From a virus: DNA of 64,000 nucleotides. Positions 19,222 through 49,114 of this stretch are shown piece after piece (the stretch's first letter is position 1; each line of letters starts with the position of its first letter). A model generated the notes under the pieces. It saw only the letters and a program-made list of their open reading frames with translations. It ran no database searches and had not been told where the DNA came from. The DNA lies in IMG/VR virus record IMGVR_UViG_3300008107_000046, positions 1-64,000 of that record. One strand, 5' to 3'. Both the position numbers and the translations under genes were made by a program.

Positions 19222-19539
19222 TTGAGTATAACTCTCCGCCCCCATAAAATAAGGGAGGTAACAATGGCGTATAAAATCAATACTACATATTGTTGGTATG
19301 AATTGGACAATGAATATGTCATTGTTAAAATGTATTTTATTAATCATTGTCCATTTACCTTTGATGAGTTATCATCTATTGTTAGGCAAGACCCTGAAAT
19401 AATCTCAATAGCAGATAAAAATGTAAAATTTTGCCCAGAAGATTTGTACAAGTCTTCTTTTTATTTGATAGATGAACAAGTACATCCATGTTTATTTACA
19501 CTAGATTTAGAAAATCCAGAAGAGTTGCCAAATGATTGA
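19222..19539 (+). CDS. hypothetical protein
   Basis: ORF; likely start MAYKIN after GGAGG. Confidence 0.55.
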   Translation: MSITLRPHKIREVTMAYKINTTYCWYELDNEYVIVKMYFINHCPFTFDELSSIVRQDPEIISIADKNVKFCPEDLYKSSFYLIDEQVHPCLFTLDLENPEELPND

Positions 19540-20017
19540 AAAATTTTGTAAATATTTTGAAGGGTATTTTAACAATCAAAAACAAGCATTTTCTAATCCA
19601 AGTTCATTTGCTTTGATTGAACTTGAACATTTTCAATTGTCAAGTAATAAATTTAGAATTATCCAAAAGTATAATATTGATCCTACTCCATATAGAAAAA
19701 ATATTATCGAAATTTTTGAAGAAAATGATCACTTGTTAATTAAAAATTATAAAGATAATGAAGAATTGACTTATCTTTCTGGGTGTGATATTATTATGGA
19801 ATATAAAGATAATAAATTTTTTGGTAAAAATACTTGTAAAGACTGTATTGTTAACTGGCAAGAAAAGTCTACATATTTAATTACTGAAAGTATTCTTACT
19901 GAAAATCTTTATGAAGTAGTTGATCGTGGATTTGATACTACGACTGATGAACAAATTTGGGGTTCTTTTTTTGGATCTTTTCAGTTTAATAAAATTAAAT
20001 CTTTAATTGAGGAGTAA
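19532..20017 (+). CDS. cpeT: CpeT/CpcT-like phycobiliprotein lyase
   Basis: FEGYFNNQKQAFSNP, PYR, GCDI, DRGFD...QIWGS motifs. Confidence 0.85.
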   Translation: MIEKFCKYFEGYFNNQKQAFSNPSSFALIELEHFQLSSNKFRIIQKYNIDPTPYRKNIIEIFEENDHLLIKNYKDNEELTYLSGCDIIMEYKDNKFFGKNTCKDCIVNWQEKSTYLITESILTENLYEVVDRGFDTTTDEQIWGSFFGSFQFNKIKSLIEE

Positions 20018-20028
20018 TCCTCTATTTT

Positions 20029-20102
20029 GCCTCTGTAGCTCAGTTGGATAGAGCAGGGCTTTTGTAAAGCTCAGGTCGCAAGTTCAAGTCTTGTCGGGGG
20101 CT
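20029..20102 (+). tRNA. trnT: tRNA-Thr(TGT)
   Basis: Acceptor GCCTCTG/CGGGGGC, D arm GCTC/GAGC, anticodon arm GGGCT-TT TGT AA-AGCTC, TTCAAGT T loop. Confidence 0.92.
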
Positions 20103-20121: not shown

Positions 20122-21258
20122 ATGAAAAACGAAGTAAATTTTAAATATATTGATGTCTTTGATAACAAAGATGTAACTTATGATTTGGAAAAATATCCAA
20201 TGAATAAGATTATTCTTAGGGAAGTACAAAAATATTATCCAAGTGTCCAAGATCTAAGTCTTCTTCATGAACATATTGAAGGTGGAAAAGTATCTGATTT
20301 AATGTCTAAGGTAAGTAAAGACTTAACAAAGACTGAATTTTACGAGTACTTTGATGATATTGTTAAACAATATGTTGTATCCCAAATTGATCGTGATGTT
20401 TTAATCCAAAAATTTGGAAATGTTAGGGCAGTTATTCCAAATCAAGACAAAATTGGCGCTCTTCTTCATTTTCATCAAGGAAGATGGGTTGGTAACGGTC
20501 TTGGATTAAGAACTGTTTGGATGGCATTTACTGATTGTTATGAAAGTAATAGTTTACAAATTCTTCCTTTAGAGGAAAGTAGAAAAATTACGATTGACGC
20601 AGTTAAAGAAAATTGGACATATGAAAAACTCCAAGAAGAATGTACAAAATATGCATTCCCTGTAACTATTAAACCTGGACAGTTTCATTTGTTTACTCAG
20701 GAACATATTCATGGCAATTTTCCAAATCTCACTAATAAAACGAGAATTAGTATTGATGTAAGAATTCTATTGAAAGATGGTCAACCACACCGTAAATGGC
20801 CTGGTGCTTACTTTAGGAAATTGGGAGATCTTGATATTAATTCTACACCAGTAGAAATTAAATCAGGTGAATCTACAGCAACATATGCTGAGTATGAAGG
20901 ATTTAAAACAAAAGGAATTGATCTTCATTTTCAAACTCTTACCGTAAGAAATTATTGTTCCAGAATGGGATATGTTTTCCCATATCAACATGCGGATAAT
21001 GAAGGTACTCACCATGCACATTTAGAACATTTAATTGAGCATGGAAATATTGATCATTTGTTCCTGTTTAGTATTTTTTCACTACCAGATGATCCAGATA
21101 GAAGACAATATTTAATGAATTTAGCTTTAAAGAGTAATTGTAAACTGCACTTTGCAAATGAAGAATTTGTACTTGACAATGAGAAAATGTTGAGTAAAAT
21201 AGAGTACTTACGATCGTTTACGAATGATTGGACAAATCCTGTTGATCAAGTTCTATGA
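20122..21258 (+). CDS. 2OG-Fe(II) dioxygenase-fold enzyme with HxG motif fused to a carbohydrate-cluster-type C-terminal domain
   Basis: FHQGRW...VWMAFTDCYESNSL...HIHGNFPNLTNKTRISIDVR; C-terminal FSIFSLPDD...LHFANE. Confidence 0.65.
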   Translation: MKNEVNFKYIDVFDNKDVTYDLEKYPMNKIILREVQKYYPSVQDLSLLHEHIEGGKVSDLMSKVSKDLTKTEFYEYFDDIVKQYVVSQIDRDVLIQKFGNVRAVIPNQDKIGALLHFHQGRWVGNGLGLRTVWMAFTDCYESNSLQILPLEESRKITIDAVKENWTYEKLQEECTKYAFPVTIKPGQFHLFTQEHIHGNFPNLTNKTRISIDVRILLKDGQPHRKWPGAYFRKLGDLDINSTPVEIKSGESTATYAEYEGFKTKGIDLHFQTLTVRNYCSRMGYVFPYQHADNEGTHHAHLEHLIEHGNIDHLFLFSIFSLPDDPDRRQYLMNLALKSNCKLHFANEEFVLDNEKMLSKIEYLRSFTNDWTNPVDQVL

Positions 21259-21437
21259 AAATTAATCTTTGGTATTGTAATGATATGAAACAATGGCGTT
21301 GGACCTTATGTGATGATTCGAGACCTATATTAAAGCAAGAATCTGGTCAACAACCAAATCTTAGAGATGCAATGAATGATGTGGCAAATACTGTTGAATA
21401 TATACTTGACAAACAAGAAAATGGTGCTATAATTTAA
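21255..21437 (+). CDS. conserved cyanophage hypothetical protein
   Basis: MKINLWYCNDMKQWRWTL...QESGQ...AMNDVANTVEY. Confidence 0.65.
   Translation: MKINLWYCNDMKQWRWTLCDDSRPILKQESGQQPNLRDAMNDVANTVEYILDKQENGAII
21406..21433 (+). promoter_or_regulatory. sigma70-type promoter with extended -10
   Basis: TTGACA-16 nt-TATAAT with TG-n before the -10. Confidence 0.7.
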
Positions 21438-21438
21438 T

Positions 21439-21505
21439 TGCGATACTAATTCGCAGTGACCCAAAAAGTGTGACTTCAGAACCCTCTTTTAGAGGGTTTT
21501 GTTGT
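21439..21505 (+). ncRNA. candidate small RNA (5' hairpin, linker, terminator)
   Basis: Lies between a consensus promoter and an intrinsic terminator; no ATG-initiated ORF. Confidence 0.45.
21477..21505 (+). terminator. intrinsic terminator
   Basis: CAGAACCCTCT-TTT-AGAGGGTTTTG stem followed by U-rich tail. Confidence 0.75.
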
Positions 21506-27526: not shown

Positions 27527-28768
27527 ATGAGTTCCATGTTCCAACTTCGCCCCCATCAGAAATCTGCTCTTGAGGCGATGCTGCTCCATGCAAAAGGTAT
27601 TGTCGTTGCTCCTACAGGCGCAGGTAAGAGCATCATCGCTATCTATGATACTATTCGCCATTTCGCTTTGGGAAACCAAACTGTGGTTGTGGTTGCTCCT
27701 AGACTGCTTCTTGCTCAGCAGTTGTGTTCTGAGTTCATGGAGCACATCACTGATGCTTCTGTAATGCATGTTCACTCTGCTAAAGACTGCAATTACTTTG
27801 CTACAACTAAACCTGATGAGATTGGCGATTGGTGTGAAAATACTCAAGGTAACAAACTGATTTTTACAACTTATAATTCTCTTCAGCGCATCGTTGACGC
27901 AGGTATTCATGTCAATGCTATCTATTTTGACGAAGCACACAATTCTGTTAAAAAATCATTTTTTGATGGCACACGCATTCTATCTAAGTATGCTAACCAT
28001 TGCTATTTCTTTACTGCAACTCCGAAATATTCTTCTACTCCGAAAAAACCAGGAATGAATGATCATGAAGTTTATGGTAAGATCATCTTTAATGTTCCTG
28101 CTCCTGAACTAATTGCCAATGGTTCCATTCTTCCTCCTAAAATCAATGCTATGAATATTGGTTCTGCTCGTGATAAGGATCAGAATGCTGCTGAGAGGGA
28201 TTGTATGACCCTCCTGGATACTATTCTGAATGAAGATCATATGGACAAAGTTCTTGTTGCTGCTCCTAACACCAAGGTTTTAATTCGTATGATTGCTGAG
28301 ACTGATTTCATGACAGAAGTTCAGTCTTATGGTTATGATGTTCTTTGGATCACTGCTAAGTATGGTGCATTTATCAACAACACAAAAATCAGTCGTGAAG
28401 AGTTCTTTAACAAGATCTCTGACTTTGGTAAAGATCCTAACAAAAAGTTCATTGTCCTTCATTACTCCATCCTTAGTGAAGGTATTTCTGTGCCTGGTCT
28501 TACTTCTCTTGTTATGATGCGTCAGATGAATGTGATTGAGATGTGTCAGTCTATCGGTCGCGTTATCCGTCTTCATCTTGATGACATCAAAGCAATTCAG
28601 AACGGTCAAATCAAGGCGGGTGACTTGAATTCATATACTAAATCTTTTGGTCTAATCCATGTTCCTGTTTACAGCAACACTGGTATTTCCACAGTGCGTC
28701 GTCTTCAATCTGTTGTCGATACTGTGTTTGTTGAGGGTCAACCTGCTATTTCAGTAATTAAAAAATGA
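27527..28768 (+). CDS. superfamily II (DEAH / type III Res-like) helicase
   Basis: LRPHQ, APTGAGKS, FDEAH, FTATP, ILSEGISVP, QSIGRVIR; start moved downstream of promoter. Confidence 0.88.
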   Translation: MSSMFQLRPHQKSALEAMLLHAKGIVVAPTGAGKSIIAIYDTIRHFALGNQTVVVVAPRLLLAQQLCSEFMEHITDASVMHVHSAKDCNYFATTKPDEIGDWCENTQGNKLIFTTYNSLQRIVDAGIHVNAIYFDEAHNSVKKSFFDGTRILSKYANHCYFFTATPKYSSTPKKPGMNDHEVYGKIIFNVPAPELIANGSILPPKINAMNIGSARDKDQNAAERDCMTLLDTILNEDHMDKVLVAAPNTKVLIRMIAETDFMTEVQSYGYDVLWITAKYGAFINNTKISREEFFNKISDFGKDPNKKFIVLHYSILSEGISVPGLTSLVMMRQMNVIEMCQSIGRVIRLHLDDIKAIQNGQIKAGDLNSYTKSFGLIHVPVYSNTGISTVRRLQSVVDTVFVEGQPAISVIKK

Positions 28769-29202
28769 AATACGAAGTTATACGAGATCAATTTTATGAG
28801 TGTTTGGATCTGACCTGGGATGTTATCAACACTCAAGTTGAAAAAGAAATTCAAAATAATACATGTAGAATTATAGGTAACGATGAAGAAAAGACTATTC
28901 TTCTTTTAGATAATGAGAATTTTCATCCAATCATATCTAAAATGTATGCTATAATGAGATATAAGTATCGTCTTACGACTTTACATATATACACTTCACA
29001 AAATAATGCACAGACATTTGGAAGGCATTGTGATCAGTCAGACGTTTTAATTGTTCAATCAATAGGTAAAATGTCTTATAAATTTGATGATGGTGAATTA
29101 ATCGTATTAAAACCTGGAGATGGGGTTTACATCCCAAAAGGAATGTATCATGATCCTATTCCTATCGAACCTAGAGTGTCATTAAGTTTTTCTTGGAATT
29201 AA
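28765..29202 (+). CDS. JmjC/cupin-type 2OG oxygenase
   Basis: FGRHCDQSDVLIVQSIG...LKPGDGVYIPKGMYH...RVSLSF. Confidence 0.75.
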   Translation: MKYEVIRDQFYECLDLTWDVINTQVEKEIQNNTCRIIGNDEEKTILLLDNENFHPIISKMYAIMRYKYRLTTLHIYTSQNNAQTFGRHCDQSDVLIVQSIGKMSYKFDDGELIVLKPGDGVYIPKGMYHDPIPIEPRVSLSFSWN

Positions 29203-31776: not shown

Positions 31777-32030
31777 TGATATATACCCAACAATATATTT
31801 TTTACTTATTAGTATTTTCTTTCATCGCTTATTTTGTAGTGACAGATGAGAGTATTGCTGCATTAGTTATTTTAAGTATAAAAATTTTAAGAAATAATAT
31901 AGAAAGATTAATTTGGATGATTAGATTTCATCCTTTAGTAACTACAAACAAAATTATGCAGTGGTATATGATGCGTAAATATATGAAGGAGGCAGAAAAA
32001 TTGCAAAAAGAACTATTTAAAGATGATTAG
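31776..32030 (+). CDS. membrane-anchored hypothetical protein
   Basis: N-terminal hydrophobic helix. Confidence 0.55.
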   Translation: MIYTQQYIFYLLVFSFIAYFVVTDESIAALVILSIKILRNNIERLIWMIRFHPLVTTNKIMQWYMMRKYMKEAEKLQKELFKDD

Positions 32031-32841
32031 AATACCTCACGAAGTTCAGTTACACATAACACATTCATGCAATTTGACATGTGAAGGATGTACTCACTAT
32101 AGTAATCATGGACATTCTGGAATGTTATCTTTGGAAGAAGGATCAGAATGGATGGATAGGTGGAATAAAAGAATAATTCCAGAAAGATTTACTATTCTTG
32201 GTGGAGAACCAGCATTGAATAAAGATCTTACTAAATTCATTTATCTTGCAAAAGAAAAATGGCCTAATTCATATTTGGAATTAATTTCCAATGGATTTCA
32301 TTTACACAAACACCCAGATCTACCAAAGGCTTTGATTGATACCCAAACTGTTATTGGTATTTCTGTTCATTCTAGAGAACATCCAGATTACATTGAGAAA
32401 TTTAAACCAGTTTATAAATTGGCAAAAAAATGGTTATTGATGGGTGTAAAGGTCGAAATGAGACATTCATCTCTTGATTGGTTAAGGCAATATCAAGGGT
32501 ATGGGGATAATATGCTCCCCTATGAAGACAATAATCCAGAATCAAGTTGGAAAAACTGTGTTTCTAGAATGTGTATACAACTACATGAAGGTAAAATCTG
32601 GAAATGTCCAGGTTTAGCGTATTTACCTATGCAAGCAGAAAAATATAATCTTTCTGAAAAATGGGATAAATATCTGAAATATGAACCATTGCATCATGAT
32701 TGTTCTGATGAAGAACTTGTTGAATTTTTTAATAGGAAATGGGAAACGTACTGTGATATGTGTCCAGCAAATAAAGAACATTTCAAACCATCTGCAGATC
32801 CATTATTACCAGTTAGTTATTGGAAAAAACTCAACAAATAA
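32023..32841 (+). CDS. radical SAM protein with C-terminal Cys cluster
   Basis: CNLTCEGC (CxxxCxxC), LGGEP, SNG, C-terminal C..C..WKCP..CDMC. Confidence 0.88.
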   Translation: MIRIPHEVQLHITHSCNLTCEGCTHYSNHGHSGMLSLEEGSEWMDRWNKRIIPERFTILGGEPALNKDLTKFIYLAKEKWPNSYLELISNGFHLHKHPDLPKALIDTQTVIGISVHSREHPDYIEKFKPVYKLAKKWLLMGVKVEMRHSSLDWLRQYQGYGDNMLPYEDNNPESSWKNCVSRMCIQLHEGKIWKCPGLAYLPMQAEKYNLSEKWDKYLKYEPLHHDCSDEELVEFFNRKWETYCDMCPANKEHFKPSADPLLPVSYWKKLNK

Positions 32842-37682: not shown

Positions 37683-38522
37683 TTACGATTTAAAGAATTC
37701 CTCTGATTCTTTTACAGACATCAGAGGATTTTTTGTAGATTTTACATAGTTTTTATACGCTGGACACATTCCACAAACAGGTTCTGATTTTCTATTAAAA
37801 AACTCTATTAATTCTTCATGACTACAATTTGGTTCTAGTGGGACATAGTTTAAATAAGGATCCCATTTTTCCGATATATTATATTTTTCTGCCATTAGAG
37901 GTAAGTATGCCAAAGGAGGACATTTCCATATTTTACCTTCATGTAATTGGAAACAGGTTCCTTCCATGAAACAGTTATTCCAACTACTTTCTGGATTATT
38001 ATCTTCAAATGGCATTATATTTTCACCATAACCATTATAGATTTTTGTCCAGTATTCATGGGTGGTATTTATAGATACATTAATACCAAGTTCACGTTTC
38101 CATTTTAAACATAAATTTAAATTATCTTTTATTTTGCTGAGATAATCTTTTGATTTACTATGAATTGATATTGATAGATTGATATTATTTTCTTTTATAG
38201 CATTTCCTAAATCTTTGTGTTTGTCCAGGAAAAATCCGTTAGTCGTAAGTTTTATGTAAGTGCTTCCCCATAGTTCTCTAGACAGATATAAGAAATCTAT
38301 CAAATCTTTATGTAAAGTTGGTTCTCCTCCAAGTATTATAAATTGTTTTGGTTGAACTCTATCTTTCCAATAAGATATCCATTGTCTTCCTTCAGTTAAC
38401 GATATCATTCTAGAATGTCCATGATTTGTGAAATCAGAACAACTTTCGCAAGTTAGATTGCAATTATGTGTTATGTGAAAATCTAGAATTGGTATTTTTA
38501 CTTTTGGATGCATTATTATCAT
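37683..38522 (-). CDS. radical SAM protein (paralogue of 32023-32841)
   Basis: CNLTCESC, LGGEP, TTNG, EDNNPESSW, QLHEGKIWKCP. Confidence 0.88.
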   Translation of the reverse strand: MIIMHPKVKIPILDFHITHNCNLTCESCSDFTNHGHSRMISLTEGRQWISYWKDRVQPKQFIILGGEPTLHKDLIDFLYLSRELWGSTYIKLTTNGFFLDKHKDLGNAIKENNINLSISIHSKSKDYLSKIKDNLNLCLKWKRELGINVSINTTHEYWTKIYNGYGENIMPFEDNNPESSWNNCFMEGTCFQLHEGKIWKCPPLAYLPLMAEKYNISEKWDPYLNYVPLEPNCSHEELIEFFNRKSEPVCGMCPAYKNYVKSTKNPLMSVKESEEFFKS

Positions 38523-38552: not shown

Positions 38553-39752
38553 ATGAATAAACCTCATTGTATAGTTCCTTGGATATATTTTTTTGCGGAG
38601 GCAAATGGTGATGTAATGCCATGTTGTGTTAATAATACTTTTCTTGGAAACATACAAGTTAATGATTACAAAAAGGTGTGGAATTCGCATCAAATGAAAA
38701 AATTTAGACGTAAAATGTTAGACGGTGAGTTGCCAAAAACATGTGAAATATGCATAGAAAATAAGACTTTAACAGATGATGTTAATAACACATATAATCT
38801 TAAAGATTATTATAATAATTTTTTTAAATCTTCATTTGATGAAATTGAAAAAATTACTAATGAGGATGGATCTATTAAAGAAGATGAAATAAAATTTAAA
38901 GCGTTTTCATTCAAAGTTAGTAATAAATGTAATTTTAAATGTAGAATGTGTAATGCATACAATAGTTCTTTGATAGCAGGTGGTGTAATTGAAAATGGTG
39001 AGTTCTATAAATCTTTTGTTAAAGAAAACATTAATGATTTAGAATTAATAGAATTTATAGGTGGTGAATCATTTTTAATGGAAGAAACTTATGATATTTT
39101 ACAGTATTTAATTGATAGAAACAAACCACATCCACATCTACATTTTAATACTAACATGTCGGTATTGAGTTTGGGTGATAGAAACATTTTTGATTATTTG
39201 GAAAAATTAGATATCTCTAAAGTAGAAATAGTTGCTAGTGTTGATGAACTTGATGAGAGAGCAGAATATATTAGAAAAGGATGTAACTGGAAATCTATAG
39301 AAAAAAATCTAAAAAAACTTTCAAAAAAAGACTTTAAAACTAACACTAATATTGTAGCAAGTTGTTATAATGTTTTTAGATTACCTGAAATTATTACTCG
39401 TTTAGTTGATATTGGTCATATAAATGAAAAGCATAACTATGAAAATTTTATGTTCAATCCAGTAATTGGAGATTGTGATATAATTTTACTAAGCGATGAA
39501 TTTAAAAATAAAATAATGGATAAATTGTATAATTTTATTGCTGAATATAATAAGACCTATAATGTTGATATTTCTTATAAGTTTAAGATTATCATAGGTA
39601 AATTAAAACAAGAATTGCCAGATAATATTAATGAATTAAGAGTTCAATTCTTATATGAAAATCACAAAAAAGATAAAAAACGTGGTGAAAAGTTACTAAA
39701 AACTATACCAGAAATGAAAGATGTAGTTTATTTGTTGAAAAATGGAAACTGA
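38553..39752 (+). CDS. radical SAM protein with N-terminal SPASM/twitch-like domain
   Basis: CIVPW...GDVMPCC...CEIC then CNFKCRMC, GGE, FNTN. Confidence 0.85.
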   Translation: MNKPHCIVPWIYFFAEANGDVMPCCVNNTFLGNIQVNDYKKVWNSHQMKKFRRKMLDGELPKTCEICIENKTLTDDVNNTYNLKDYYNNFFKSSFDEIEKITNEDGSIKEDEIKFKAFSFKVSNKCNFKCRMCNAYNSSLIAGGVIENGEFYKSFVKENINDLELIEFIGGESFLMEETYDILQYLIDRNKPHPHLHFNTNMSVLSLGDRNIFDYLEKLDISKVEIVASVDELDERAEYIRKGCNWKSIEKNLKKLSKKDFKTNTNIVASCYNVFRLPEIITRLVDIGHINEKHNYENFMFNPVIGDCDIILLSDEFKNKIMDKLYNFIAEYNKTYNVDISYKFKIIIGKLKQELPDNINELRVQFLYENHKKDKKRGEKLLKTIPEMKDVVYLLKNGN

Positions 39753-41344: not shown

Positions 41345-42019
41345 ATGCTTTCTGGAAAAGAATTTGTTAAAAAAATTAAGGAAGAGAATGCTGAACTTTT
41401 TGAGCAGTCACGCTTGAATGTTCGTCGTTTCTTTGCTTCAAATCCAAGCAAAGAGCATATGGTTGAGCACTTCCGTGGTCGCATGGTAAACGAAGCAATG
41501 AACATGAAGGCAATTGCTGCTGAAGTTGCTGCTGCTCCTGCATCCATGGACGTTACCGAACTTGAGTTGCTGACCAAGCAAGCACAAGATGAGGCAAAGC
41601 ACTTCCGTATGGTTAAGGAAGTTATTGAGCACATCTCAGGCGAAACCGTAGATGTTGATGCTGCATTTGCTGCAGAAGCATCAGCACCACAAGCAAAAGG
41701 TGCTACCCTTTTGGATAAGTACGGTGCATCTGAAGATCCTGCTGCTCTTGCTGCATACCAACTCGTTGCTGAAGGTCGTGCAGAAGCAGTTTGGAATGAA
41801 ATGGCAGAATGTGTAGAAGATGAGTTTATCTCTTCACGTTATGCTGCTATTGCTAAGGACGAAGGTTTCCATGCTAACATCGGTGGTTGGAAACTTGAGA
41901 AACTCGTAGAGGGTGCTTCTGACCTTCAAGAGCGTATCCTTGCAATGGTTGCTCAAATGCGTTCTGATCTCCTTGAGATCAGCAACAAGAACACCGCTGT
42001 TCCTTTTGCTGCCGTCTGA
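41345..42019 (+). CDS. ferritin-like diiron-carboxylate protein
   Basis: E..(DEAKH)...E...(DEGFH): two ExxH motifs in a helical protein. Confidence 0.8.
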   Translation: MLSGKEFVKKIKEENAELFEQSRLNVRRFFASNPSKEHMVEHFRGRMVNEAMNMKAIAAEVAAAPASMDVTELELLTKQAQDEAKHFRMVKEVIEHISGETVDVDAAFAAEASAPQAKGATLLDKYGASEDPAALAAYQLVAEGRAEAVWNEMAECVEDEFISSRYAAIAKDEGFHANIGGWKLEKLVEGASDLQERILAMVAQMRSDLLEISNKNTAVPFAAV

Positions 42020-42036
42020 TAGATAATTAAAATATT

Positions 42037-42291
42037 ATGAGTACAGTGGAATTGAGAAGACGTAAAGATAAAACTCGCATAATTAAGTGGGTTAGCGCCA
42101 GCACAATACTCATCGCAATGGTGTTTCATGTGCTGGGGCTAACCCCTTGGAATAGCATCCTACAACTAATTGGTGCTTCAGGGTGGACGTATGTTGGATT
42201 TAAATGGAAAGAACGTTCAATTATAATGAACTTTCTTCCACAATTTTTTATTATTATACCTGGATTGTTTTACTTATTTTTTATAAAATGA
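42037..42291 (+). CDS. small 3-TM membrane protein
   Basis: IKWVSASTILIA..PWNSILQLIG..GWTYVGFKWKERSII. Confidence 0.65.
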   Translation: MSTVELRRRKDKTRIIKWVSASTILIAMVFHVLGLTPWNSILQLIGASGWTYVGFKWKERSIIMNFLPQFFIIIPGLFYLFFIK

Positions 42292-43244
42292 CTGAAGAAA
42301 TTGATGAGTTAAAAAATTCTTTAGATTTTAGTAAAATAAGAATAGGATCACATAGATGGAGTGTTGAATCTAATAGAGAATTAGAATATATTGAGTGGGA
42401 TAGTTTACCTGATGATGTTGATGAACAACGAGATAACTTAAAAAGGTTTTTTTATGATCGTGATTATGAAAATATTTTATTGATTTTTTTTAAAAGTGGT
42501 GCTGGTGGGTTATTCTTATCAAATTGTCTTGCATTAAGTGATAGTGTTGGTAGTATTTTCATTGATATTGAAGAGAAAATAAGATTTTTTAATAAGTATC
42601 TTGAATCTCAAAAAGTTTTTTGGAATGATTGTTATATAAACAATACTTCACCAGAAGTCCATCAAAATAATAAAGAATACTTTAGAAAAAGATATCATTT
42701 TGTTTATGAACATAATCCAAAATATATAAAGCATCATTTAAAATTTTGGAGTAATTGTAATGTAATATACTTTACAAATCCAGATTTATTTTGTAAAATA
42801 CGTCAGTTATTGAAAAATATAGATGGGAATTTGGGATACATTAGTTATGAAAAAGTCAAAGAAGACTTAGATGATTATCCAATACCAAAAAGTTTTAAGG
42901 ATTTTTTTAATCTCCCTAAAAAAACTCAAGAAAGTTTAAAAAATGCTTATAAGAGTGATGAAAATTTAAGCACATTTTGCTTTCTTAAAAACAAAAAGTT
43001 ATTTTATGTTTGGGATACGAATTGGTATTTTTCTGAAGAAGATACTGTAACTCATATTAGAGAACTTTATGATTTATTTGGATTTAAAGATTTTAATGAT
43101 GAAGTGATACGCGAATTTTATAGAAAATGGATTTCAAAATTGGATTATTTTGCAGAGAGAGAAATTCCAGATAATATACAAGAATTACTTAAAGATAAAA
43201 AAAATTTTGATAAAGACATAACTTCTTTTTGGGATTTATACTGA
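42288..43244 (+). CDS. sulfotransferase-like P-loop paralogue 1
   Basis: KSGAGGLFLSNCLALS...WDTNWYFSEED; start reassigned to ATGA overlap at 42288. Confidence 0.5.
   Translation: MTEEIDELKNSLDFSKIRIGSHRWSVESNRELEYIEWDSLPDDVDEQRDNLKRFFYDRDYENILLIFFKSGAGGLFLSNCLALSDSVGSIFIDIEEKIRFFNKYLESQKVFWNDCYINNTSPEVHQNNKEYFRKRYHFVYEHNPKYIKHHLKFWSNCNVIYFTNPDLFCKIRQLLKNIDGNLGYISYEKVKEDLDDYPIPKSFKDFFNLPKKTQESLKNAYKSDENLSTFCFLKNKKLFYVWDTNWYFSEEDTVTHIRELYDLFGFKDFNDEVIREFYRKWISKLDYFAEREIPDNIQELLKDKKNFDKDITSFWDLY
43005..43099 (+). repeat. 95-bp near-identical direct repeat, copy 1
   Basis: 94/95 identical to 43934-44028. Confidence 0.85.
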
Positions 43245-44185
43245 TGACTAAAGAAATTAAAATTGGATCTCATAGATGGAACTCTAATTCTGGTAGACAA
43301 CTTGAATATATCAAGTGGCATGGTGTTCCAGATAACATAGAATATCAAAGAAAAAAATTAAAAAGATCTTTTTATGATCGTGATTACGATAAAGTTATAA
43401 TTTTGTTTTTCCAAAGTGGTGCTGGTGGACTGTTTTTAGCAAATTGTTTGTCTTTAAGTATTTCTGTTTGTAGTTCATTTGTTCATTTAAATGAGAAAAT
43501 AGAATTATTAAATAAGTATTTAAATTCTCAAGGGACTTTTTGGAATGATCTTTATCTGAATAATTATTATCCAGAATTGTTTTTAGAACAACCAGAAGAA
43601 GGTGTTTGGCACACTACAGACGGGTATTTTTTTGTTCATGAACATGAAGGTAAAAATATACCTTTACATTTAGATTTTTGGAATAATGCAAGTATGATTT
43701 ATTTCAAAAATACAGATCTTTTTTGTAAAATTAGAAAATTACTTAAAAATATTGATGGTAAAGCAGGTTATATAAGTTATGAACCACTGCTACCTAATAA
43801 AGAAGAATATCCTATCCCTCATAGTTTTTCTGAATTTTTTAATTTATCTACTAAAGAGCAAGATGATTTAAAAAATGCTTATAGAAGTGCAGATTTATAT
43901 TCATCATCATTTTTAAAAAATAAAAAACCTTTATATGTTTGGGATACGAATTGGTATTTTTCTGAAGAAGATACTGTAACTCATATTAAAGAACTTTATG
44001 ATTTATTTGGATTTAAAGATTTTAATGAAAAAATTATAACTTCGTATTATAGAAAGTGGATATCAACTTTAGATGAATTAAGCAAAACTGCGATACCTAA
44101 AATGCTTAATATTGATGAATTATTAAAAGATAGGCAAAATTATGATGTTGCAATATCTAACTTTAAAGATATTACAAAAAAATAA
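43244..44185 (+). CDS. sulfotransferase-like P-loop paralogue 2
   Basis: QSGAGGLFLANCLSLS...WDTNWYFSEED. Confidence 0.5.
   Translation: MTKEIKIGSHRWNSNSGRQLEYIKWHGVPDNIEYQRKKLKRSFYDRDYDKVIILFFQSGAGGLFLANCLSLSISVCSSFVHLNEKIELLNKYLNSQGTFWNDLYLNNYYPELFLEQPEEGVWHTTDGYFFVHEHEGKNIPLHLDFWNNASMIYFKNTDLFCKIRKLLKNIDGKAGYISYEPLLPNKEEYPIPHSFSEFFNLSTKEQDDLKNAYRSADLYSSSFLKNKKPLYVWDTNWYFSEEDTVTHIKELYDLFGFKDFNEKIITSYYRKWISTLDELSKTAIPKMLNIDELLKDRQNYDVAISNFKDITKK
43934..44028 (+). repeat. 95-bp near-identical direct repeat, copy 2
   Basis: 94/95 identical to 43005-43099. Confidence 0.85.
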
Positions 44186-45078
44186 TGAAAAAAATATTTT
44201 CTTATCTTTGGAGTTCTCATGGTGTAGAATATAAGTTAATTGATGAACATGAAATAAAAAATGACAAGGAAAGAATATATTCTTATATAAATCCAGATTA
44301 TAAAAATGTACTATTCATTTACTACAAAAGTGGTGCTGGAGGACTATTTTTGGCAAATTGTTTGGCACTAAGTGAACAGGTATATACTTTACATTCTACT
44401 TTAGATAGTAAAATTGAGTATTTAAATAATTCTTTAGAAAAACAAGAATTATTTTGGAATGATGTATATTTAATACCACCTATAATTGAATATGATACTC
44501 CAGAACATGTTCATAAAAACAGATACACAATAATATTTGATCATGATCCAAAAAATATAAAACTTCATTTGAAACATTGGAATAATCTGGATGTAATATA
44601 TTTTACAAATCCAGATTTATTCTGTAAAGTTAGAAGATTGTTAAAAAATTATGATGGTGTATTTGTTAAAGATAGTGTAGAATACATAAAAGATTGTGAT
44701 GAAAAAATGATTCCATCATCTATAAATGGATTTAGTTCTCTTGAAAAAGAAAAGCAGATAAAATTAAAAAATATTTTTAAAAGTGGCGAAAACCTAAACA
44801 ATTTTTGCTTTCTCAAAAACAAAAAATTATTTTATGTTTGGGATACAAACTGGTATTTTTCTGAAGATTGTACTATAATGCAAATAAAGGAACTTTATGA
44901 ACATTTAAATTTTCCAGATTTTCATGAAGATGTAGTACGCTCTTATTATAAAAAATGGATTTTAAAACTAGATGATTTGAGGTCTAAAGAAATACCTACT
45001 GATTTTACTAGTATTATTAATGATGAGAAGTACTACGATAAATCCATAGCAATACACGAAGAAAAAACCCCCATCTAA
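44185..45078 (+). CDS. sulfotransferase-like P-loop paralogue 3
   Basis: KSGAGGLFLANCLALS...YFTNPDLFCK...WDTNWYFSED. Confidence 0.5.
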   Translation: MKKIFSYLWSSHGVEYKLIDEHEIKNDKERIYSYINPDYKNVLFIYYKSGAGGLFLANCLALSEQVYTLHSTLDSKIEYLNNSLEKQELFWNDVYLIPPIIEYDTPEHVHKNRYTIIFDHDPKNIKLHLKHWNNLDVIYFTNPDLFCKVRRLLKNYDGVFVKDSVEYIKDCDEKMIPSSINGFSSLEKEKQIKLKNIFKSGENLNNFCFLKNKKLFYVWDTNWYFSEDCTIMQIKELYEHLNFPDFHEDVVRSYYKKWILKLDDLRSKEIPTDFTSIINDEKYYDKSIAIHEEKTPI

Positions 45079-45083
45079 AGATT

Positions 45084-45707
45084 ATGAAAAAAATGGTAAT
45101 TCTTACTGGACCACAAGGGTCTGGTAATCATCTTTGGTCTAAGATATTCTCACTGCACCCAGAAGTATTTGGGTGGAAGACACTTCTTGATAACTATTGG
45201 GAAGCACATAGATTTGCAGAACCATTCTGTGAACATTGGAAAGACCCATCAAAACTTAAGGACTTTGATTGGTCTACTCATGACTATTTCTTTACAAGTA
45301 TTAGTGTTCCTCTTGGTATTCAAGAAACTAAGTGGGAACCAAACATCATGAAGTTTGCAAATGAAGTTGAGAAACTTGGTATTGAAACTCAGATTGTTGT
45401 AATCGGTAGAGATCAAAATATTCTCAGACATCAACAGAATAGATTGAGAAAAGAAAGTACTCTTCATCATTTCATGAAACAACTTCCAGAGTTTCGTAAT
45501 CCAATCTTTTTGAGTTATGAACTTCTTTATCTCTACAAACAAGATTATTTGAAGTCTCTGAATGTTGGTATTCCAATTGCTTGGGATGATGATAGAGTAG
45601 ATGAAATACTATCTAATGATTCTAATGATAAGTATATTCAACATGTGCAGGAATATTTTCTAGATAATTGTAATAAAACTGGTATTCCATTAAAAACTCC
45701 AAAATAG
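45084..45707 (+). CDS. sulfotransferase-like P-loop protein, family B copy 1
   Basis: ILTGPQGSGNHLWSKIFSLHP, IGRDQNI, LSYELL. Confidence 0.55.
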   Translation: MKKMVILTGPQGSGNHLWSKIFSLHPEVFGWKTLLDNYWEAHRFAEPFCEHWKDPSKLKDFDWSTHDYFFTSISVPLGIQETKWEPNIMKFANEVEKLGIETQIVVIGRDQNILRHQQNRLRKESTLHHFMKQLPEFRNPIFLSYELLYLYKQDYLKSLNVGIPIAWDDDRVDEILSNDSNDKYIQHVQEYFLDNCNKTGIPLKTPK

Positions 45708-45708
45708 A

Positions 45709-46437
45709 ATGGAATGGCAACCATTTTTTCCAGCGCGTTATAATTTTAATTTTGAAACACATGATGAAAGAATAATTGATTTTTATTCTAAATTTAAAAA
45801 TAATAATAAAAACTCAAATTCCATTTTAATTATTTTTGAAGGAGGTTCTGGTGGAGGATTTCTTGCAAATTGCTTATCATTTAGCAGTAAAATTTCTTCC
45901 AAAATTAATAATAAATTAGAATACTTATTGGAAAAATTAAATATAATGGATGTTGTTTGGGATGATTTTCACTTAAACAATGTGATAGATGAAAACAATT
46001 ATTTCTTTATATTAGATCATCCACTTACAACAAATGTTTTAAAATATCATCTAAATTATTGGAAAAGTCCTACAGTCATTTTGTTTAAAAATCCCACATT
46101 ATTTTGTAAATTGAGGAGATGTGTTTGGGACGTTTCTGGGGAGATATGTTATGACCCAAATTATTTGGATGGTCAATTAAAAGATTATAATAAGTTTGGG
46201 GAATATAATGATAAAAATCAATTATATTCCTTTTGTGATATAAAAACAAAAACTAATTTTTACATTTGGGATACTAATTGGTATTTTTCATCAAAAGATA
46301 CTATTGAAAATTTGAAGATAATTTATCATTCTTTAGATCTTGGAGAATTTGACGAAAAATCTATATTGAAGTATTATAAATCATGGATTAATAAGATAAA
46401 TTATTTAAAGACTTTACCTGTTGTAGATAATGAATGA
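45709..46437 (+). CDS. sulfotransferase-like P-loop paralogue 4
   Basis: EGGSGGGFLANCLSFS...WDTNWYFS. Confidence 0.5.
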   Translation: MEWQPFFPARYNFNFETHDERIIDFYSKFKNNNKNSNSILIIFEGGSGGGFLANCLSFSSKISSKINNKLEYLLEKLNIMDVVWDDFHLNNVIDENNYFFILDHPLTTNVLKYHLNYWKSPTVILFKNPTLFCKLRRCVWDVSGEICYDPNYLDGQLKDYNKFGEYNDKNQLYSFCDIKTKTNFYIWDTNWYFSSKDTIENLKIIYHSLDLGEFDEKSILKYYKSWINKINYLKTLPVVDNE

Positions 46438-46786
46438 ATATTCAAAGTTAATAAAACTTGCAGAAAGTAATAGCACTACTCAGGATAAACTTGAAGAGTT
46501 ATCTAAACATGAGCACTATGGTATAAGATATCGAGTAGCAAAAAATTCTAATACATCATCTAAAATATTGTCTTCATTTATTTGTGATGAAAGTATATCA
46601 GTAAGATATGAAACTGCAAAAAATAAAAATGCTGATGTAAAAGATTTAGTTTCTTTACTTAAAGATAAGAGTTCAATAGTTGTCGATGCTGCTAAAAAAA
46701 CATTAGAATTAAAGACTGGTAAAGAAATTTCAACAACAACTACTACTGGGATAAGAAAAGTTAAACTCATTACTGATTATTTTTAA
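46430..46786 (+). CDS. HEAT / leucine-rich-variant repeat protein
   Basis: Repeats L..D....VR..VAKN.N. Confidence 0.65.
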   Translation: MNEYSKLIKLAESNSTTQDKLEELSKHEHYGIRYRVAKNSNTSSKILSSFICDESISVRYETAKNKNADVKDLVSLLKDKSSIVVDAAKKTLELKTGKEISTTTTTGIRKVKLITDYF

Positions 46787-46787
46787 T

Positions 46788-47438
46788 ATGAAAAAACTCT
46801 TAATTATCACTGGACCACAAGGATCTGGTAACCATTTCTTCAGCAGGGTATTCAGTACTCACCCTAAAGTTGGTGGATGGAAAAGTCTCCTTGATAAGTA
46901 TTGGGTTCCAAGTGATGAAGAATACTTCGCTAAGTATTGGGTTCACCCAGAAGAACTCACCGAAAAGGATTTTGATGGATTTGATTATTGGTTGGCGAAT
47001 GTAAGTTGTCCATTCTTCTATGATGGTGTTAGGTATATTCCTAAGATCAAAGAGTTTGCAGAACGAGCACAATCTTTTGGGATTGATGTTCAGATTGCAA
47101 TTATTGTGAGAGAACCAAACATTAATGCTCAGCAGCAACTCCGTGTAAGAAAAGAGATTACAACTCCTATTGCTCAGGATTACTATTATAATACTCTTAT
47201 TCCTTCTGGATTTAAAATACACTTCTTAGATAATGAAGCATTCTTTTTGCATCGCCAACATTATCTAAAGTGGGTGAGCGAACTTTTAGACTTCCCAGTT
47301 GATTATGATAATCCTGATATCTTTAAGTTTATTGTGGATGATCCAAATAAAAAATATGTTAAGTATATTGATGAATATTGGTTGGACAAAGAGGTGTTGG
47401 ATGGTGTAAGATCGAAGAAAGAGAGAGGAGTTTCCTAA
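46788..47438 (+). CDS. sulfotransferase-like P-loop protein, family B copy 2
   Basis: IITGPQGSGNHFFSRVFSTHP, IVREPNI; paralogue of 45084. Confidence 0.55.
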   Translation: MKKLLIITGPQGSGNHFFSRVFSTHPKVGGWKSLLDKYWVPSDEEYFAKYWVHPEELTEKDFDGFDYWLANVSCPFFYDGVRYIPKIKEFAERAQSFGIDVQIAIIVREPNINAQQQLRVRKEITTPIAQDYYYNTLIPSGFKIHFLDNEAFFLHRQHYLKWVSELLDFPVDYDNPDIFKFIVDDPNKKYVKYIDEYWLDKEVLDGVRSKKERGVS

Positions 47439-47617
47439 TGAACACTAGTCCACAATTTCCTTATCCTGGATTTCCTTATAAATTACAACATTTGGATAAA
47501 AAAGATAAGAAAGTTTGTTACTTTGAATGCAAAGAACACCTGGATAAATATCTACTGAGAAATAATCTGAAGAAAAAGGACGTTAACATTGAAATTAATA
47601 AAAAAACTAATAAGTGA
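47438..47617 (+). CDS. conserved cyanophage hypothetical protein
   Basis: FPYPGFPYKL...KVCYFECKEHLDKYL; start reassigned. Confidence 0.6.
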   Translation: MNTSPQFPYPGFPYKLQHLDKKDKKVCYFECKEHLDKYLLRNNLKKKDVNIEINKKTNK

Positions 47618-47693
47618 TATTAAAGATTATTATTACTTGATTAGATTGAAAAAAAGATTAAAAGGAAAAAAAGATCCGTTTATTTACAAATGA
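47589..47693 (+). CDS. 34-aa basic peptide ending KKDPFIYK, coupled to carbamoyltransferase
   Basis: TTG start; stop overlaps the carbamoyltransferase ATG (ATGA). Confidence 0.5.
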   Translation: MKLIKKLISDIKDYYYLIRLKKRLKGKKDPFIYK

Positions 47694-49114
47694 TTACTTG
47701 GGGAATTTCATCCGAAAGTCATAATGCTGCACTTTCTGTTTTTATGAATGATACTCTCATTTTTGCGAGTGAAAGTGAGAGATTTAGTGGTATCAAGAAT
47801 GATCCTCAATTGAATGATGGCATAATTAACTATGCATTATCATTTGGAAAACCAGAATTGGTCTGTTGGTATGAAAACCCATATAAAAAAACACTTAGAC
47901 AACTTCTTGCTGGTCAAGGATGGATCCAAAACGTCAAGAAGTATGTTGATGCTCCGATCAAGTATTATGATCACCATTATACTCATGCTTGTGCTGGTTA
48001 TTTCACCAGCAAGTTTGACGAGTGTTGCGTGGTGGTTATTGATGCTATAGGAGAATTTCAAACACTTACAATTTGGGAAGCAAAGGGTAATAAACTAAAA
48101 CTTAAATTTCAACGTAGATATCCACACAGCGTCGGACTTTGGTACTCTGCAATGACCCAAAGGTGTGGATTGAAACCAAATGAAGAAGAATATATCCTCA
48201 TGGGCATGTCTGCTTATGGGGATAAACTGCGTTATGAAAATGATATTTACCGAGATTTTATAGGATTTAGAACTGCGGCATTTAAAAAAAACTTACATAA
48301 AGGATGTAAGGATTGGAGACCAGATATTAATAATACTTTTGATATTGCTGCTGCAACTCAAGACATTTATGAAACAATATTTAGAGATATACTGCAGAAG
48401 GCATCTAATATTGTTAAAAGTAATAATTTAGTTTTGATGGGTGGGTGTGCGTTGAATTGTGTTGCAAATCCAATTGCGTATTATTATTATGATAATGTGT
48501 GGATTATGCCTGCACCTGGAGATAATGGATCTGCAATTGGTGCTGTGCTTGCACACAAAAAGAAACATATTGATTGGCATGGACCTTATCTTGGATATCA
48601 TATTAAATCAGTTGCATCAAACGAAGAAATTGTTAATCACTTGATGGATCATGGTCTTTGTGGAGTTGCAAGGGGTCGTGCAGAGTTTGGTCCCAGGGCA
48701 TTAGGTAATCGTAGTTTGCTTGCTGATCCTAGAGATCCTCAGATTAAGTCAATGGTTAATAATATCAAACAAAGACAACAGTTCAGACCATTTGCTCCTG
48801 TGATTATGGAGGAATATGTACATGATTATTTTAGGATGCCTACGAATTCTTCACCATATATGCAGTATGCAGTAAAATGTAGATATTCTAAAAAGTTTCC
48901 TGCGATTGTTCATGTAGATAAGACAAGTAGAGTTCAAACTGTAAATAGACAGCAGAATGCAGAACTTTATGATCTTTTGAAATTGTGGTATGAAAAAACT
49001 GGTTGTCCTATGTTACTGAATACCAGTTTAAATATTAAAGGAAAACCAATGGTGAATGACGAAAAAGATTGTAAAGAGTGGGAAGATATGTATAAGGTTA
49101 AAGTTTTTATATGA
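47690..49114 (+). CDS. NodU/CmcH-family O-carbamoyltransferase
   Basis: ESERFSGIKND, HHYTHA, GGCALN, PAPGDNGSAIG, GRAEFGPRALGNRS, FRPFAP, LNTSLN. Confidence 0.93.
   Translation: MITWGISSESHNAALSVFMNDTLIFASESERFSGIKNDPQLNDGIINYALSFGKPELVCWYENPYKKTLRQLLAGQGWIQNVKKYVDAPIKYYDHHYTHACAGYFTSKFDECCVVVIDAIGEFQTLTIWEAKGNKLKLKFQRRYPHSVGLWYSAMTQRCGLKPNEEEYILMGMSAYGDKLRYENDIYRDFIGFRTAAFKKNLHKGCKDWRPDINNTFDIAAATQDIYETIFRDILQKASNIVKSNNLVLMGGCALNCVANPIAYYYYDNVWIMPAPGDNGSAIGAVLAHKKKHIDWHGPYLGYHIKSVASNEEIVNHLMDHGLCGVARGRAEFGPRALGNRSLLADPRDPQIKSMVNNIKQRQQFRPFAPVIMEEYVHDYFRMPTNSSPYMQYAVKCRYSKKFPAIVHVDKTSRVQTVNRQQNAELYDLLKLWYEKTGCPMLLNTSLNIKGKPMVNDEKDCKEWEDMYKVKVFI

What the first reader, a model, noticed from the sequence alone, without database searches (positions are those of the whole stretch)
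20122..21258. Candidate phage-encoded Fe(II)/2OG halogenase (HxG) fused to a carbohydrate-cluster domain
Seen: the first iron-binding motif reads H-Q-G (20473-20481; LLHFHQGRWVG) where this fold normally has H-x-D/E. The distal His and the 2OG-binding Arg (HGNFPNLTNKTRISIDVR) are intact. Established: replacing the carboxylate with Gly/Ala frees the halide site in 2OG halogenases (SyrB2 HxA; WelO5 and BesD HxG). From memory, the two halves resemble the normally separate 'sporadic carbohydrate cluster' proteins (TIGR04324 oxygenase and TIGR04323 partner), here fused. Inference: a virus-encoded radical halogenase acting on a sugar or nucleotide-sugar, which I do not know to be described in phages.
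Basis: partly seen in the sequence, partly recalled or inferred. Interest (0 to 1): 0.8.

Follow-up and report, generated by a model that had tools for sequence, protein, structure and literature searches.

The report
Phage iron oxygenase with Gly-Gln site
A lake cyanophage carries a well-conserved two-domain iron/2-oxoglutarate enzyme in which the usual iron-binding aspartate is glycine, always paired with one particular glutamine, so it is either an oxygenase with a rebuilt iron site or (less likely) the first viral radical halogenase, and only an assay or a metal-bound structure can decide.

Summary
ORF 20122-21258 (378 aa) reads H118-Q119-G120 at 20473-20481, with distal H197 and R208-x-S210 intact. 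Its halves match TIGR04324 (86 bits, under the 150 cut-off) and TIGR04323 (56.4 against 55).

Gly120 lies in the Asp column of 97 H-x-D relatives and of PtlH. All 117 H-x-G relatives with a complete N domain keep it, and dN/dS is about 0.03. The fusion is ordinary for this clade (112 of 117). At least 292 IMG/VR contigs carry the gene, but no cultured phage in INPHARED does. Bacterial relatives lie in glycan-synthesis clusters.

That spacing matches the relocated Glu iron ligand of the sugar oxygenase HygX (H-X-G...E-X3-H). In my alignments the same column is a Ser in the halogenases SyrB2 and CytC3.

I therefore rate a non-halogenating oxygenase with a rebuilt 2-His(+Gln) site at about 0.45 and a halogenase at about 0.3.

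The C-terminal domain has a serine-recombinase catalytic-domain fold without the Ser/Arg motif.

The scan has found this family before on other DNA, with similar verdicts.

The parts
20122..21258 (+). Whole gene: 378-aa two-domain Fe(II)/2OG enzyme
   Evidence: ORF. AF2 model has pLDDT 92.6 and pTM 0.90. dN/dS is 0.024-0.030 against close phage copies.
20122..20826 (+). N-terminal PhyH-like double-stranded beta-helix oxygenase domain (residues 1-235)
   Evidence: TIGR04324 86.2 bits and Pfam PhyH. By VIA, PtlH gives Z 13.8 over 204 residues. Foldseek's top hits are CurA Hal, SyrB2, ThoJ and PtlH at E about 1e-7.
20473..20481 (+). H118-Q119-G120: proximal His ligand, with Gly in the Asp column
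20698..20700 (+). Gln193, four residues before the distal His and strictly coupled to Gly120
   Evidence: Q in 117/117 H-x-G rows and 2/97 H-x-D rows. The column aligns to Ser in SyrB2 and CytC3. The spacing matches the relocated Glu of HygX.
20710..20712 (+). Distal His197
   Evidence: Invariant.
20743..20751 (+). R208-I-S210, the RxS 2OG-binding motif
   Evidence: R is present in 214/214 and S in 211/214 complete N domains.
20860..21255 (+). C-terminal TIGR04323 (LIC12192-family) domain with a serine-recombinase catalytic-domain-like fold
   Evidence: TIGR04323 56.4 bits. Domain model pLDDT 85.6. The top 12 VIA matches are all serine recombinases, Z 12.6-8.7, followed by a drop to Z 7. Foldseek gives TP901-1 integrase at E 7.7e-6.
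20029..20102 (+). tRNA-Thr(TGT) immediately upstream; conserved left border of the gene's position
   Evidence: The arrangement is the same in copies of 96-97% and 62-63% identity. Bellamy has the tRNA but not the gene.
21255..21437 (+). 60-aa ORF whose ATG overlaps the stop codon (ATGA); conserved right border
   Evidence: 61% identical to Bellamy gp26, which in Bellamy follows tRNA-Thr directly.

Best explanation
The gene encodes an active two-domain Fe(II)/2-oxoglutarate enzyme. It belongs to the wider family around NCBIfam TIGR04324 (oxygenase) and TIGR04323 (partner protein), in a Gly/Gln variant of the iron site.

Shown:
- H118 and H197 (iron) and R208/S210 (2OG) are kept.
- The Asp ligand is Gly120.
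- Gln193, four residues before the distal His, accompanies the Gly without exception.

Inferred:
- Gln193 occupies the space the Asp carboxylate left. It either ligates iron through its amide oxygen or stays hemilabile next to it. This parallels HygX, which relocated its acidic ligand to the same spacing.
- The enzyme then performs oxygenase-type chemistry (hydroxylation or oxidative cyclisation), not halogenation.
- The substrate is a sugar-type molecule such as an NDP-sugar or a glycan intermediate.
- The resolvase-fold C domain is its obligatory partner, for substrate binding or assembly.

In the phage the gene is a long-resident accessory gene between tRNA-Thr and the tail-fibre module. 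It probably modifies a host or virion glycan during infection.
For: - Ligand and 2OG residues are invariant or nearly so, and selection is strongly purifying.
- The G120-Q193 coupling is 117/117 against 2/97.
- On a careful tree, starred branches force at least 5 G/D switches. Q193 follows in 4 of 5 independent pairs and never goes the other way.
- HygX is a proven sugar-modifying Fe/2OG oxygenase with H-X-G...E-X3-H, meaning its acid ligand was relocated to -4 from the distal His (review PMC13374393).
- By VIA, hydroxylases and cyclases rank at or above the level of any halogenase. PtlH gives Z 13.8, EvdMO1 12.5 and AviO1 12.1, and no halogenase is in the top 50.
- Bacterial relatives lie beside GDP-mannose dehydratase, epimerases, FUT8/NodZ-like, GT2 and GT15 glycosyltransferases, a sulfotransferase and a Bac_transf sugar transferase.
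- Near-identical DNA occurs in freshwater and lake metagenomes of 15 studies, where halide is scarce.
Against: - Gln is never Glu in 117 diverse sequences, although Q to E is a single base change. If the only need were a relocated ligand, Glu would be expected at least sometimes. A neutral amide is also a good hydrogen-bond donor to a bound anion.
- I could not read model coordinates, so the Gln193-iron distance was never measured.
- HygX itself did not appear in my sequence or fold hit lists. The correspondence rests on motif spacing taken from a review.
- H-x-G/A with an intact 2OG site is the criterion the field uses to call halogenases.
- The phage locus has no sugar genes next to it.
Confidence: 0.45

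Rival explanations
1. It is a radical halogenase. Gly120 frees a coordination site for chloride or bromide. Gln193 does not ligate iron but holds the halide through its amide N-H. The ferryl abstracts a hydrogen from a sugar-type substrate and the halogen rebounds. This would be the first virus-encoded Fe/2OG halogenase.
For: - H-x-G is invariant with an intact His, His and RxS. This is the accepted diagnostic of these halogenases.
- The Gln193 column aligns to Ser in SyrB2 and CytC3. From memory, unverified, SyrB2 Ser231 lines the chloride pocket.
- Gln and never Glu fits an anion-holding role.
- Repeated G/D switching among close relatives resembles, from memory, the mixed hydroxylase and halogenase families around BesD.
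- Foldseek's first hits are CurA Hal and SyrB2, although only by a factor of about 5 in E-value.
- As an analogy only: dimetal-carboxylate halogenases also carry a halogenase-specific Gln.
Against: - HygX shows that H-X-G with a ligand at -4 gives a non-halogenating oxygenase.
- The halogenases aligned here have a small residue (Ser) at -4 and do not need Gln.
- TIGR01762 'chlorinating enzyme' scores 16.7 bits against a cut-off of 226.
- This phage lives in lakes.
- No halogenated bacterial or viral glycan is known to me (memory).
- D-to-G alone often gives inactive enzymes or enzymes that still hydroxylate.
Confidence: 0.3
2. The protein supplies only two His ligands. The third, anionic ligand comes from the substrate itself (a carboxylate, phosphate or sulfate of a sugar derivative). 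Gln193 hydrogen-bonds to that group, so iron becomes reactive only when the right substrate is bound.
For: - Strict Gln rather than Glu.
- A sulfotransferase and nucleotide-sugar genes lie near the bacterial relatives.
Against: I know of no precedent among 2OG oxygenases (memory), and the substrate is unknown. Nothing here separates this reading from the other two.
Confidence: 0.12
3. It is a catalytically dead oxygenase fold kept as a binding or structural protein.
For: Loss of a facial-triad residue often marks pseudo-enzymes (general knowledge).
Against: - Both His, the 2OG-binding Arg and Gln193 are invariant, and Ser210 is present in 115 of 117 H-x-G relatives spanning 27-97% identity to the window.
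- dN/dS is about 0.03.
Confidence: 0.03

Closest known systems
NCBIfam TIGR04324 'sporadic carbohydrate cluster 2OG-Fe(II) oxygenase' with TIGR04323 'LIC12192 family sporadic carbohydrate cluster protein'
   Same: These are the best HMM matches for the two halves. The PhyH-like fold, distal His and RxS are shared. Bacterial relatives sit in glycan clusters.
   Different: The N half scores 86 bits against a cut-off of 150. Proteins above the cut-off are unfused, about 240-250 aa, and H-S-D. Here the two proteins are fused, and Asp is Gly with a coupled Gln193.
HygX, hygromycin B orthoester synthase (Fe/2OG oxygenase; PDB 4XCA, 4XCB)
   Same: It has H-X-G in place of H-x-D/E and a functional residue four before the distal His (E-X3-H in HygX, Q-X3-H here). 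It acts on a sugar substrate and is not a halogenase. Its relatives AviO1 and EvdMO1 match the model at Z 12.1-12.5.
   Different: The residue is Gln, never Glu (117/117). HygX itself was not among my sequence or fold hits. HygX has no TIGR04323 domain. The role of HygX Lys137 could not be mapped onto R121.
Fe(II)/2OG halogenases SyrB2, CytC3 and CurA Hal (H-x-A); WelO5, BesD, AdaV and DAH (H-x-G)
   Same: Same fold class and loss of the carboxylate ligand, with 2OG binding kept. CurA Hal and SyrB2 are the top Foldseek hits.
   Different: There is no sequence membership (TIGR01762 16.7 bits against 226). SyrB2 and CytC3 have Ser where this family has its invariant Gln. No carrier-protein or natural-product context is present. 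Activity is untested.
PtlH, 1-deoxypentalenic acid 11-beta-hydroxylase (PDB 2RDN)
   Same: It is the closest solved structure both by sequence (E 3.5e-7 with the family profile) and by VIA (Z 13.8, rmsd 3.5, 204 residues aligned).
   Different: PtlH has a canonical H-Q-D triad and Ala at -4. It has a single domain and a terpenoid substrate.
Serine recombinase (resolvase/invertase) catalytic domain, compared with the C-terminal domain only
   Same: The alpha/beta fold is shared. PhiC31-type integrase gives Z 12.6 and TP901-1, Sin, gamma-delta and Tn3 give Z 9-10.7. Foldseek gives E 7.7e-6.
   Different: No invariant Ser or Arg follows strand 1. The invariant residues are Y255, Q271, Y278, E294, L301, S317, L321, R328, H343, N346, E347 and P373. 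There is no DNA-binding domain. The domain is fused to an oxygenase.
VirX1 / PrnA-like flavin-dependent halogenases of cyanophages
   Same: These are the only halogenases discussed for cyanophages in the papers I read.
   Different: They are an unrelated enzyme class, flavin-dependent and electrophilic, acting on aromatic substrates.

Membership tests
Fe(II)/2OG-dependent halogenases | Double-stranded beta-helix fold with two His ligands and a 2OG-binding Arg | tested here: met
   AF2 pLDDT 92.6. PhyH-fold matches. H118, H197 and R208 are invariant and S210 nearly so.
Fe(II)/2OG-dependent halogenases | Gly or Ala in place of the carboxylate of H-x-D/E | tested here: met
   G120 lies in the Asp column of 97 relatives and of PtlH.
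Fe(II)/2OG-dependent halogenases | No protein side chain takes over the vacated coordination site, so a halide can bind | tested here: inconclusive
   The invariant, coupled Gln193 has the -4 spacing of HygX's relocated Glu ligand.
Fe(II)/2OG-dependent halogenases | Halide-dependent C-H halogenation | not testable with these tools
   This needs an enzyme assay.
Fe(II)/2OG-dependent halogenases | Sequence membership in a known halogenase family (TIGR01762) | tested here: not met
   16.7 bits against a cut-off of 226.3, covering residues 177-209 only.
TIGR04324 sporadic carbohydrate cluster 2OG-Fe(II) oxygenase | HMM score over the curated cut-off | tested here: not met
   86.2 bits against 150. 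The own-genome search gave 87.3 bits, also under the cut-off.
TIGR04324 sporadic carbohydrate cluster 2OG-Fe(II) oxygenase | Partnered with a TIGR04323 protein | tested here: met
   Fused in one polypeptide.
TIGR04324 sporadic carbohydrate cluster 2OG-Fe(II) oxygenase | Location in a carbohydrate-biosynthesis cluster | tested here: inconclusive
   Met for bacterial relatives. In phages the neighbours are baseplate genes, other 2OG oxygenases, folE, radical SAM genes and tRNAs.
TIGR04323 LIC12192-family protein | HMM score over the curated cut-off | tested here: met
   56.4 bits against 55, residues 255-363. The margin is small.
HygX-type oxygenases with a relocated iron ligand | H-X-G at the first motif | tested here: met
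HygX-type oxygenases with a relocated iron ligand | Acidic residue four before the distal His (E-X3-H) that binds iron | tested here: not met
   The residue is Gln in 117/117 and never Glu. Whether Gln binds iron is unknown.
Serine recombinases (C-terminal domain) | Catalytic-domain fold | tested here: met
   Z 12.6-8.7 for the top 12 matches, all serine recombinases.
Serine recombinases (C-terminal domain) | Nucleophilic Ser with Arg just after strand 1, and a DNA-binding domain | tested here: not met
   No invariant Ser or Arg follows Y255 in 20 sequences, and the protein ends after the domain. This was judged from sequence and predicted secondary structure, not from a residue-level superposition.

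The most novel reading that the evidence does not exclude
A clade of two-domain Fe(II)/2OG enzymes consists of radical halogenases that act on sugar-type substrates. The clade is common in uncultured aquatic T4-like phages (at least 292 IMG/VR contigs) and present in several bacterial phyla. Gln193 serves as the halide-holding residue. Viruses would then make carbon-halogen bonds on glycans or nucleotide sugars during infection, a chemistry not described for any virus or for any glycan pathway.
Probability: 0.3. Interest if true: 0.85.

Novelty: new variant of a known kind. Interest (0 to 1): 0.6.

Why it matters
Either outcome would be new enzymology. One is a natural 2-His-plus-Gln iron site in a 2OG oxygenase. 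The other is a new halogenase clade with a sugar-type substrate, and the first from a virus.

The gene is abundant in uncultured aquatic myoviruses yet absent from cultured phages in INPHARED, so its role in infection is unstudied. Possible roles include remodelling host or virion glycans.

The Gly/Gln against Asp/small-residue toggle recurs several times among close relatives. It offers a natural experiment on how the facial triad of these enzymes can be rebuilt.

The finding also warns that H-x-G alone over-calls halogenases in genome mining.

Finally, it gives the TIGR04323 family a fold for the first time as far as I could find: the serine-recombinase catalytic domain, without its catalytic motif.

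Tried and rejected
- Upstream H-F-H pair as a ligand: rejected. H116 is His in 3 of 117.
- E194 or D212 as a compensating acidic ligand: rejected. E194 is Glu in only 83 of 117. D212 is equally conserved in H-x-D relatives.
- PHROGs: no family for the protein.
- tblastn against 50,697 phage records: no match.
- 'Shorter' protein search: only fragments.
- Foldseek ranking as evidence for a halogenase: rejected. E-values differ about five-fold, and VIA puts hydroxylases first.
- HygX was not found by profile searches of PDB sequences or among the top 50 VIA entries. The primary HygX paper is not held, so the HygX motif comes from a review.
- Literature check of SyrB2 Ser231: nothing useful.
- 'Sporadic carbohydrate cluster': no papers.
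- AU test of a single origin of H-x-G: not finished within the time limit. The careful tree gave 0 of 200 bootstrap trees with one change.
- Independent-pairs sign test of G120/Q193: 4 same, 0 opposite, 1 tie, p 0.125. There are too few pairs for significance.
- Model coordinates are not exposed, so no iron-site geometry was measured.
- Sequencing runs: no RNA holder listed.
- The di-iron protein at 41345-42019 was checked for the CylC-type halogenase motifs ExxQExxH and HxxDExxH. Neither is complete.

Full report
**What is there.** The window is the first 64 kb of a 74.7-kb IMG/VR virus record that CheckV rates 34% complete. It is a T4-like cyanomyovirus. It has a gp9/10-like baseplate protein, a CpeT-like gene and a 1961-aa tail fibre. 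Its nearest cultured relatives by DNA are Synechococcus phages Bellamy, S-SM2 and SynMITS9220M01. Near-identical DNA is held by freshwater and lake metagenomes of 15 studies, so this is a lake phage. ORF 20122-21258 (+, 378 aa) follows tRNA-Thr(TGT) at 20029-20102. Its stop codon overlaps the ATG of a 60-aa ORF. In phage Bellamy the tRNA-Thr is followed directly by the homologue of that small ORF (61% identity) and then by the tail fibre. The oxygenase gene is therefore an extra gene at this exact spot. The same tRNA-Thr-to-gene arrangement recurs in viral contigs whose protein is only 62-63% identical, so it is a long-standing resident and not a recent insertion.

**Check of the observation.** CAT CAA GGA at 20473-20481 encodes H118-Q119-G120, and H197, R208 and S210 follow as described. 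TIGR04324 covers residues 29-215 (86.2 bits, below the 150 cut-off). TIGR04323 covers residues 255-363 (56.4 bits, just above the cut-off of 55). Pfam sees PhyH. The full-length AF2 model is confident (pLDDT 92.6, pTM 0.90).

**How widespread, and is Gly really in the Asp column?**
- A word-based search found 95 full-length relatives of 32-96% identity.
- A scan of species genomes found fused relatives in Roseivirga, Planctomycetota and Alphaproteobacteria.
- A scan of IMG/VR found 292 viral contigs with a relative.
- No record among 50,697 deposited phage genomes matched.
- A profile of the N domain searched against 1.84 billion representatives gave 1839 hits.
- I aligned all retrieved proteins to that profile. 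Among 214 complete N domains, 117 have H-x-G (107 HQG, 9 HTG, 1 HNG) and 97 have H-x-D, without gaps between the two.
- Proteins that pass the TIGR04324 cut-off are unfused, about 240-250 aa, and H-S-D.
- With a mostly H-x-D profile, PtlH aligns its H-Q-D to this motif.

Gly120 does occupy the carboxylate column. The change characterises a clade and is not an accident of this phage. The gene is under strong purifying selection: dN/dS is 0.024-0.030 against five copies with dS 0.44-0.65. The fusion is the rule in the H-x-G set (112 of 117) and common in the H-x-D set (48 of 97).

**The coupled glutamine.** I asked which columns track the Gly/Asp state. The strongest by far is residue 193, four residues before the distal His. 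It is Gln in all 117 H-x-G proteins. In H-x-D proteins it is Pro, Ser, Ala, Gly and others, and Gln in only 2 of 97. A careful tree of the 41-protein clade holding all H-x-G proteins, plus eight outgroups, was built without these two columns. On it, Gly and Asp forms are interleaved. Well-supported branches force at least five changes, and none of 200 bootstrap trees allows a single change. Gln193 goes with Gly in four of five independent contrasts and never against it. That is too few for a significant sign test (p 0.125). Other candidates fail:
- H116 of the 'H-F-H' pair is His in 3 of 117.
- E194 is Glu in 83 of 117.
- D212 is conserved in both states.

**What position -4 means.** In HMM alignments this column is Ser in the halogenases SyrB2 and CytC3 and Ala in PtlH. 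From memory, unverified here, SyrB2 Ser231 lines the chloride pocket. Earlier notes of this scan on other genomes pointed to HygX. I checked a 2026 review. HygX is the Fe/2OG orthoester synthase of hygromycin B and acts on a sugar. It has 'H-X-G...E-X3-H': the acidic ligand is relocated and its old place is taken by Gly, 'reminiscent of halogenases', yet the enzyme is an oxidative cyclase. Q193-E-H-I-H197 has exactly this spacing. So the residue that always accompanies Gly120 stands where a proven relocated iron ligand stands. Gln and Glu are the same length, so the simplest reading is that the Gln amide reaches the iron site.

Two things speak against a plain copy of HygX. The residue is never Glu, although Q to E is one base change away. 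A neutral amide is also a typical hydrogen-bond donor to a bound anion. I could not settle this, because the structure tool does not expose coordinates. HygX itself did not surface in my sequence or fold searches, although AviO1 and EvdMO1 did (Z 12.1-12.5).

**Fold evidence.** Foldseek ranks CurA Hal and SyrB2 first, but within a factor of about five of PtlH, ThoJ and GriE. VIA-align puts PtlH first (Z 13.8, rmsd 3.5, 204 aligned), and no halogenase is among the top 50 entries. The fold says 'PhyH-like 2OG oxygenase' and nothing more.

**The C-terminal domain.** Folded alone from 20 diverse sequences, it gives pLDDT 85.6. It matches the catalytic domain of serine recombinases. The top 12 VIA hits are all of that family (Z 12.6 to 8.7), followed by a drop to Z 7 for periplasmic binding proteins. 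Foldseek agrees (TP901-1 integrase, E 7.7e-6, TM 0.66). The recombinase Ser/Arg motif after strand 1 is absent and there is no DNA-binding domain. The invariant residues are Y255, Q271, Y278, E294, L301, S317, L321, R328, H343, N346, E347 and P373. It is therefore a diverged resolvase-fold module and the obligatory partner of this oxygenase family, separate or fused. Its role is unknown. I infer substrate binding or assembly.

**Context and substrate.** Bacterial relatives lie beside the following genes:
- GDP-mannose 4,6-dehydratase and NAD-dependent epimerases.
- FUT8/NodZ-like, GT2, GT15 and STELLO-like glycosyltransferases.
- A sulfotransferase.
- An ABC-transporter ATPase.
- A Bac_transf sugar transferase.

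This supports a sugar-type substrate. In phages the conserved neighbours are a gp5-like baseplate hub, proteins of unknown function (phrog_17490, phrog_4134), other small 2OG oxygenases, GTP cyclohydrolase I and a B12-radical-SAM enzyme. The phage context therefore says little about the substrate.

**Verdict.** The halogenase reading is legitimate by the field's own criterion. It is weakened by the strict Gly/Gln coupling, the HygX precedent, the lack of any closer kinship to halogenases and the freshwater habitat. My ratings:
- Non-halogenating oxygenase with a rebuilt 2-His(+Gln) site: about 0.45.
- Halogenase: about 0.3.
- Site completed by a substrate anion: about 0.12.
- Dead enzyme: about 0.03.
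- The remainder is unassigned.

No paper on this family turned up in my searches. Only flavin-dependent halogenases are discussed for cyanophages. Earlier follow-ups of this scan reached similar verdicts for homologues on at least eight other genomes. My analyses up to the coupling were made before I read them. The HygX link came from them and was only partly checked here.

Noticed in passing
window 21406-21501: A perfect sigma-70-type promoter (TTGACA, 16 nt, TATAAT, with a TG extension) at 21406-21433 is followed by an 11-bp-stem terminator at 21477-21501. No ORF lies between them. The unit sits between the small ORF and the tail-fibre gene and looks like a short stand-alone transcript, as another first-reader note says.
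   Followed up: partly
window 19532-20017: A CpeT/CpcT-family gene (phycobiliprotein lyase-like, Pfam 2.9e-25) lies just upstream of tRNA-Thr. It is a typical cyanophage auxiliary gene.
   Followed up: no
window 28765-29202: A small 145-aa JmjC/cupin-like protein follows a DEAD/ResIII helicase gene. It is another candidate 2OG or cupin enzyme in this phage.
   Followed up: no
window 32023-32841, 37683-38522 (-), 38553-39752: Three radical-SAM genes, one of them with a SPASM domain placed N-terminal to the radical-SAM core.
   Followed up: no
window 41345-42019: A di-iron ferritin-like protein with two ExxH motifs. I checked it for the CylC-type dimetal halogenase motifs ExxQExxH and HxxDExxH, and neither is complete.
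   Followed up: partly
window 42204-50478: A low-GC block (26-29% GC) of paralogous genes without Pfam matches ends in a carbamoyltransferase (47690-49114). A Sulfotransfer_2 gene also lies near the Roseivirga homologue of the oxygenase (L005:5820-6638).
   Followed up: no
L013-L092 (IMG/VR loci): In 51 of 80 viral loci a roughly 95-aa protein (phrog_4134, unknown function) lies directly upstream of the oxygenase gene on the same strand. GTP cyclohydrolase I or a B12-binding radical-SAM gene often lies directly next to it.
   Followed up: partly
P0113, P0119, P0124, P0126, P0127, P0130 (relatives): Six H-x-D proteins are nested inside the H-x-G clade. Five of them have also lost Gln193. P0130 keeps it (H-N-D with Q) and P0113 has Glu there. 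They look like natural revertants or intermediates and would be useful controls in assays.
   Followed up: partly
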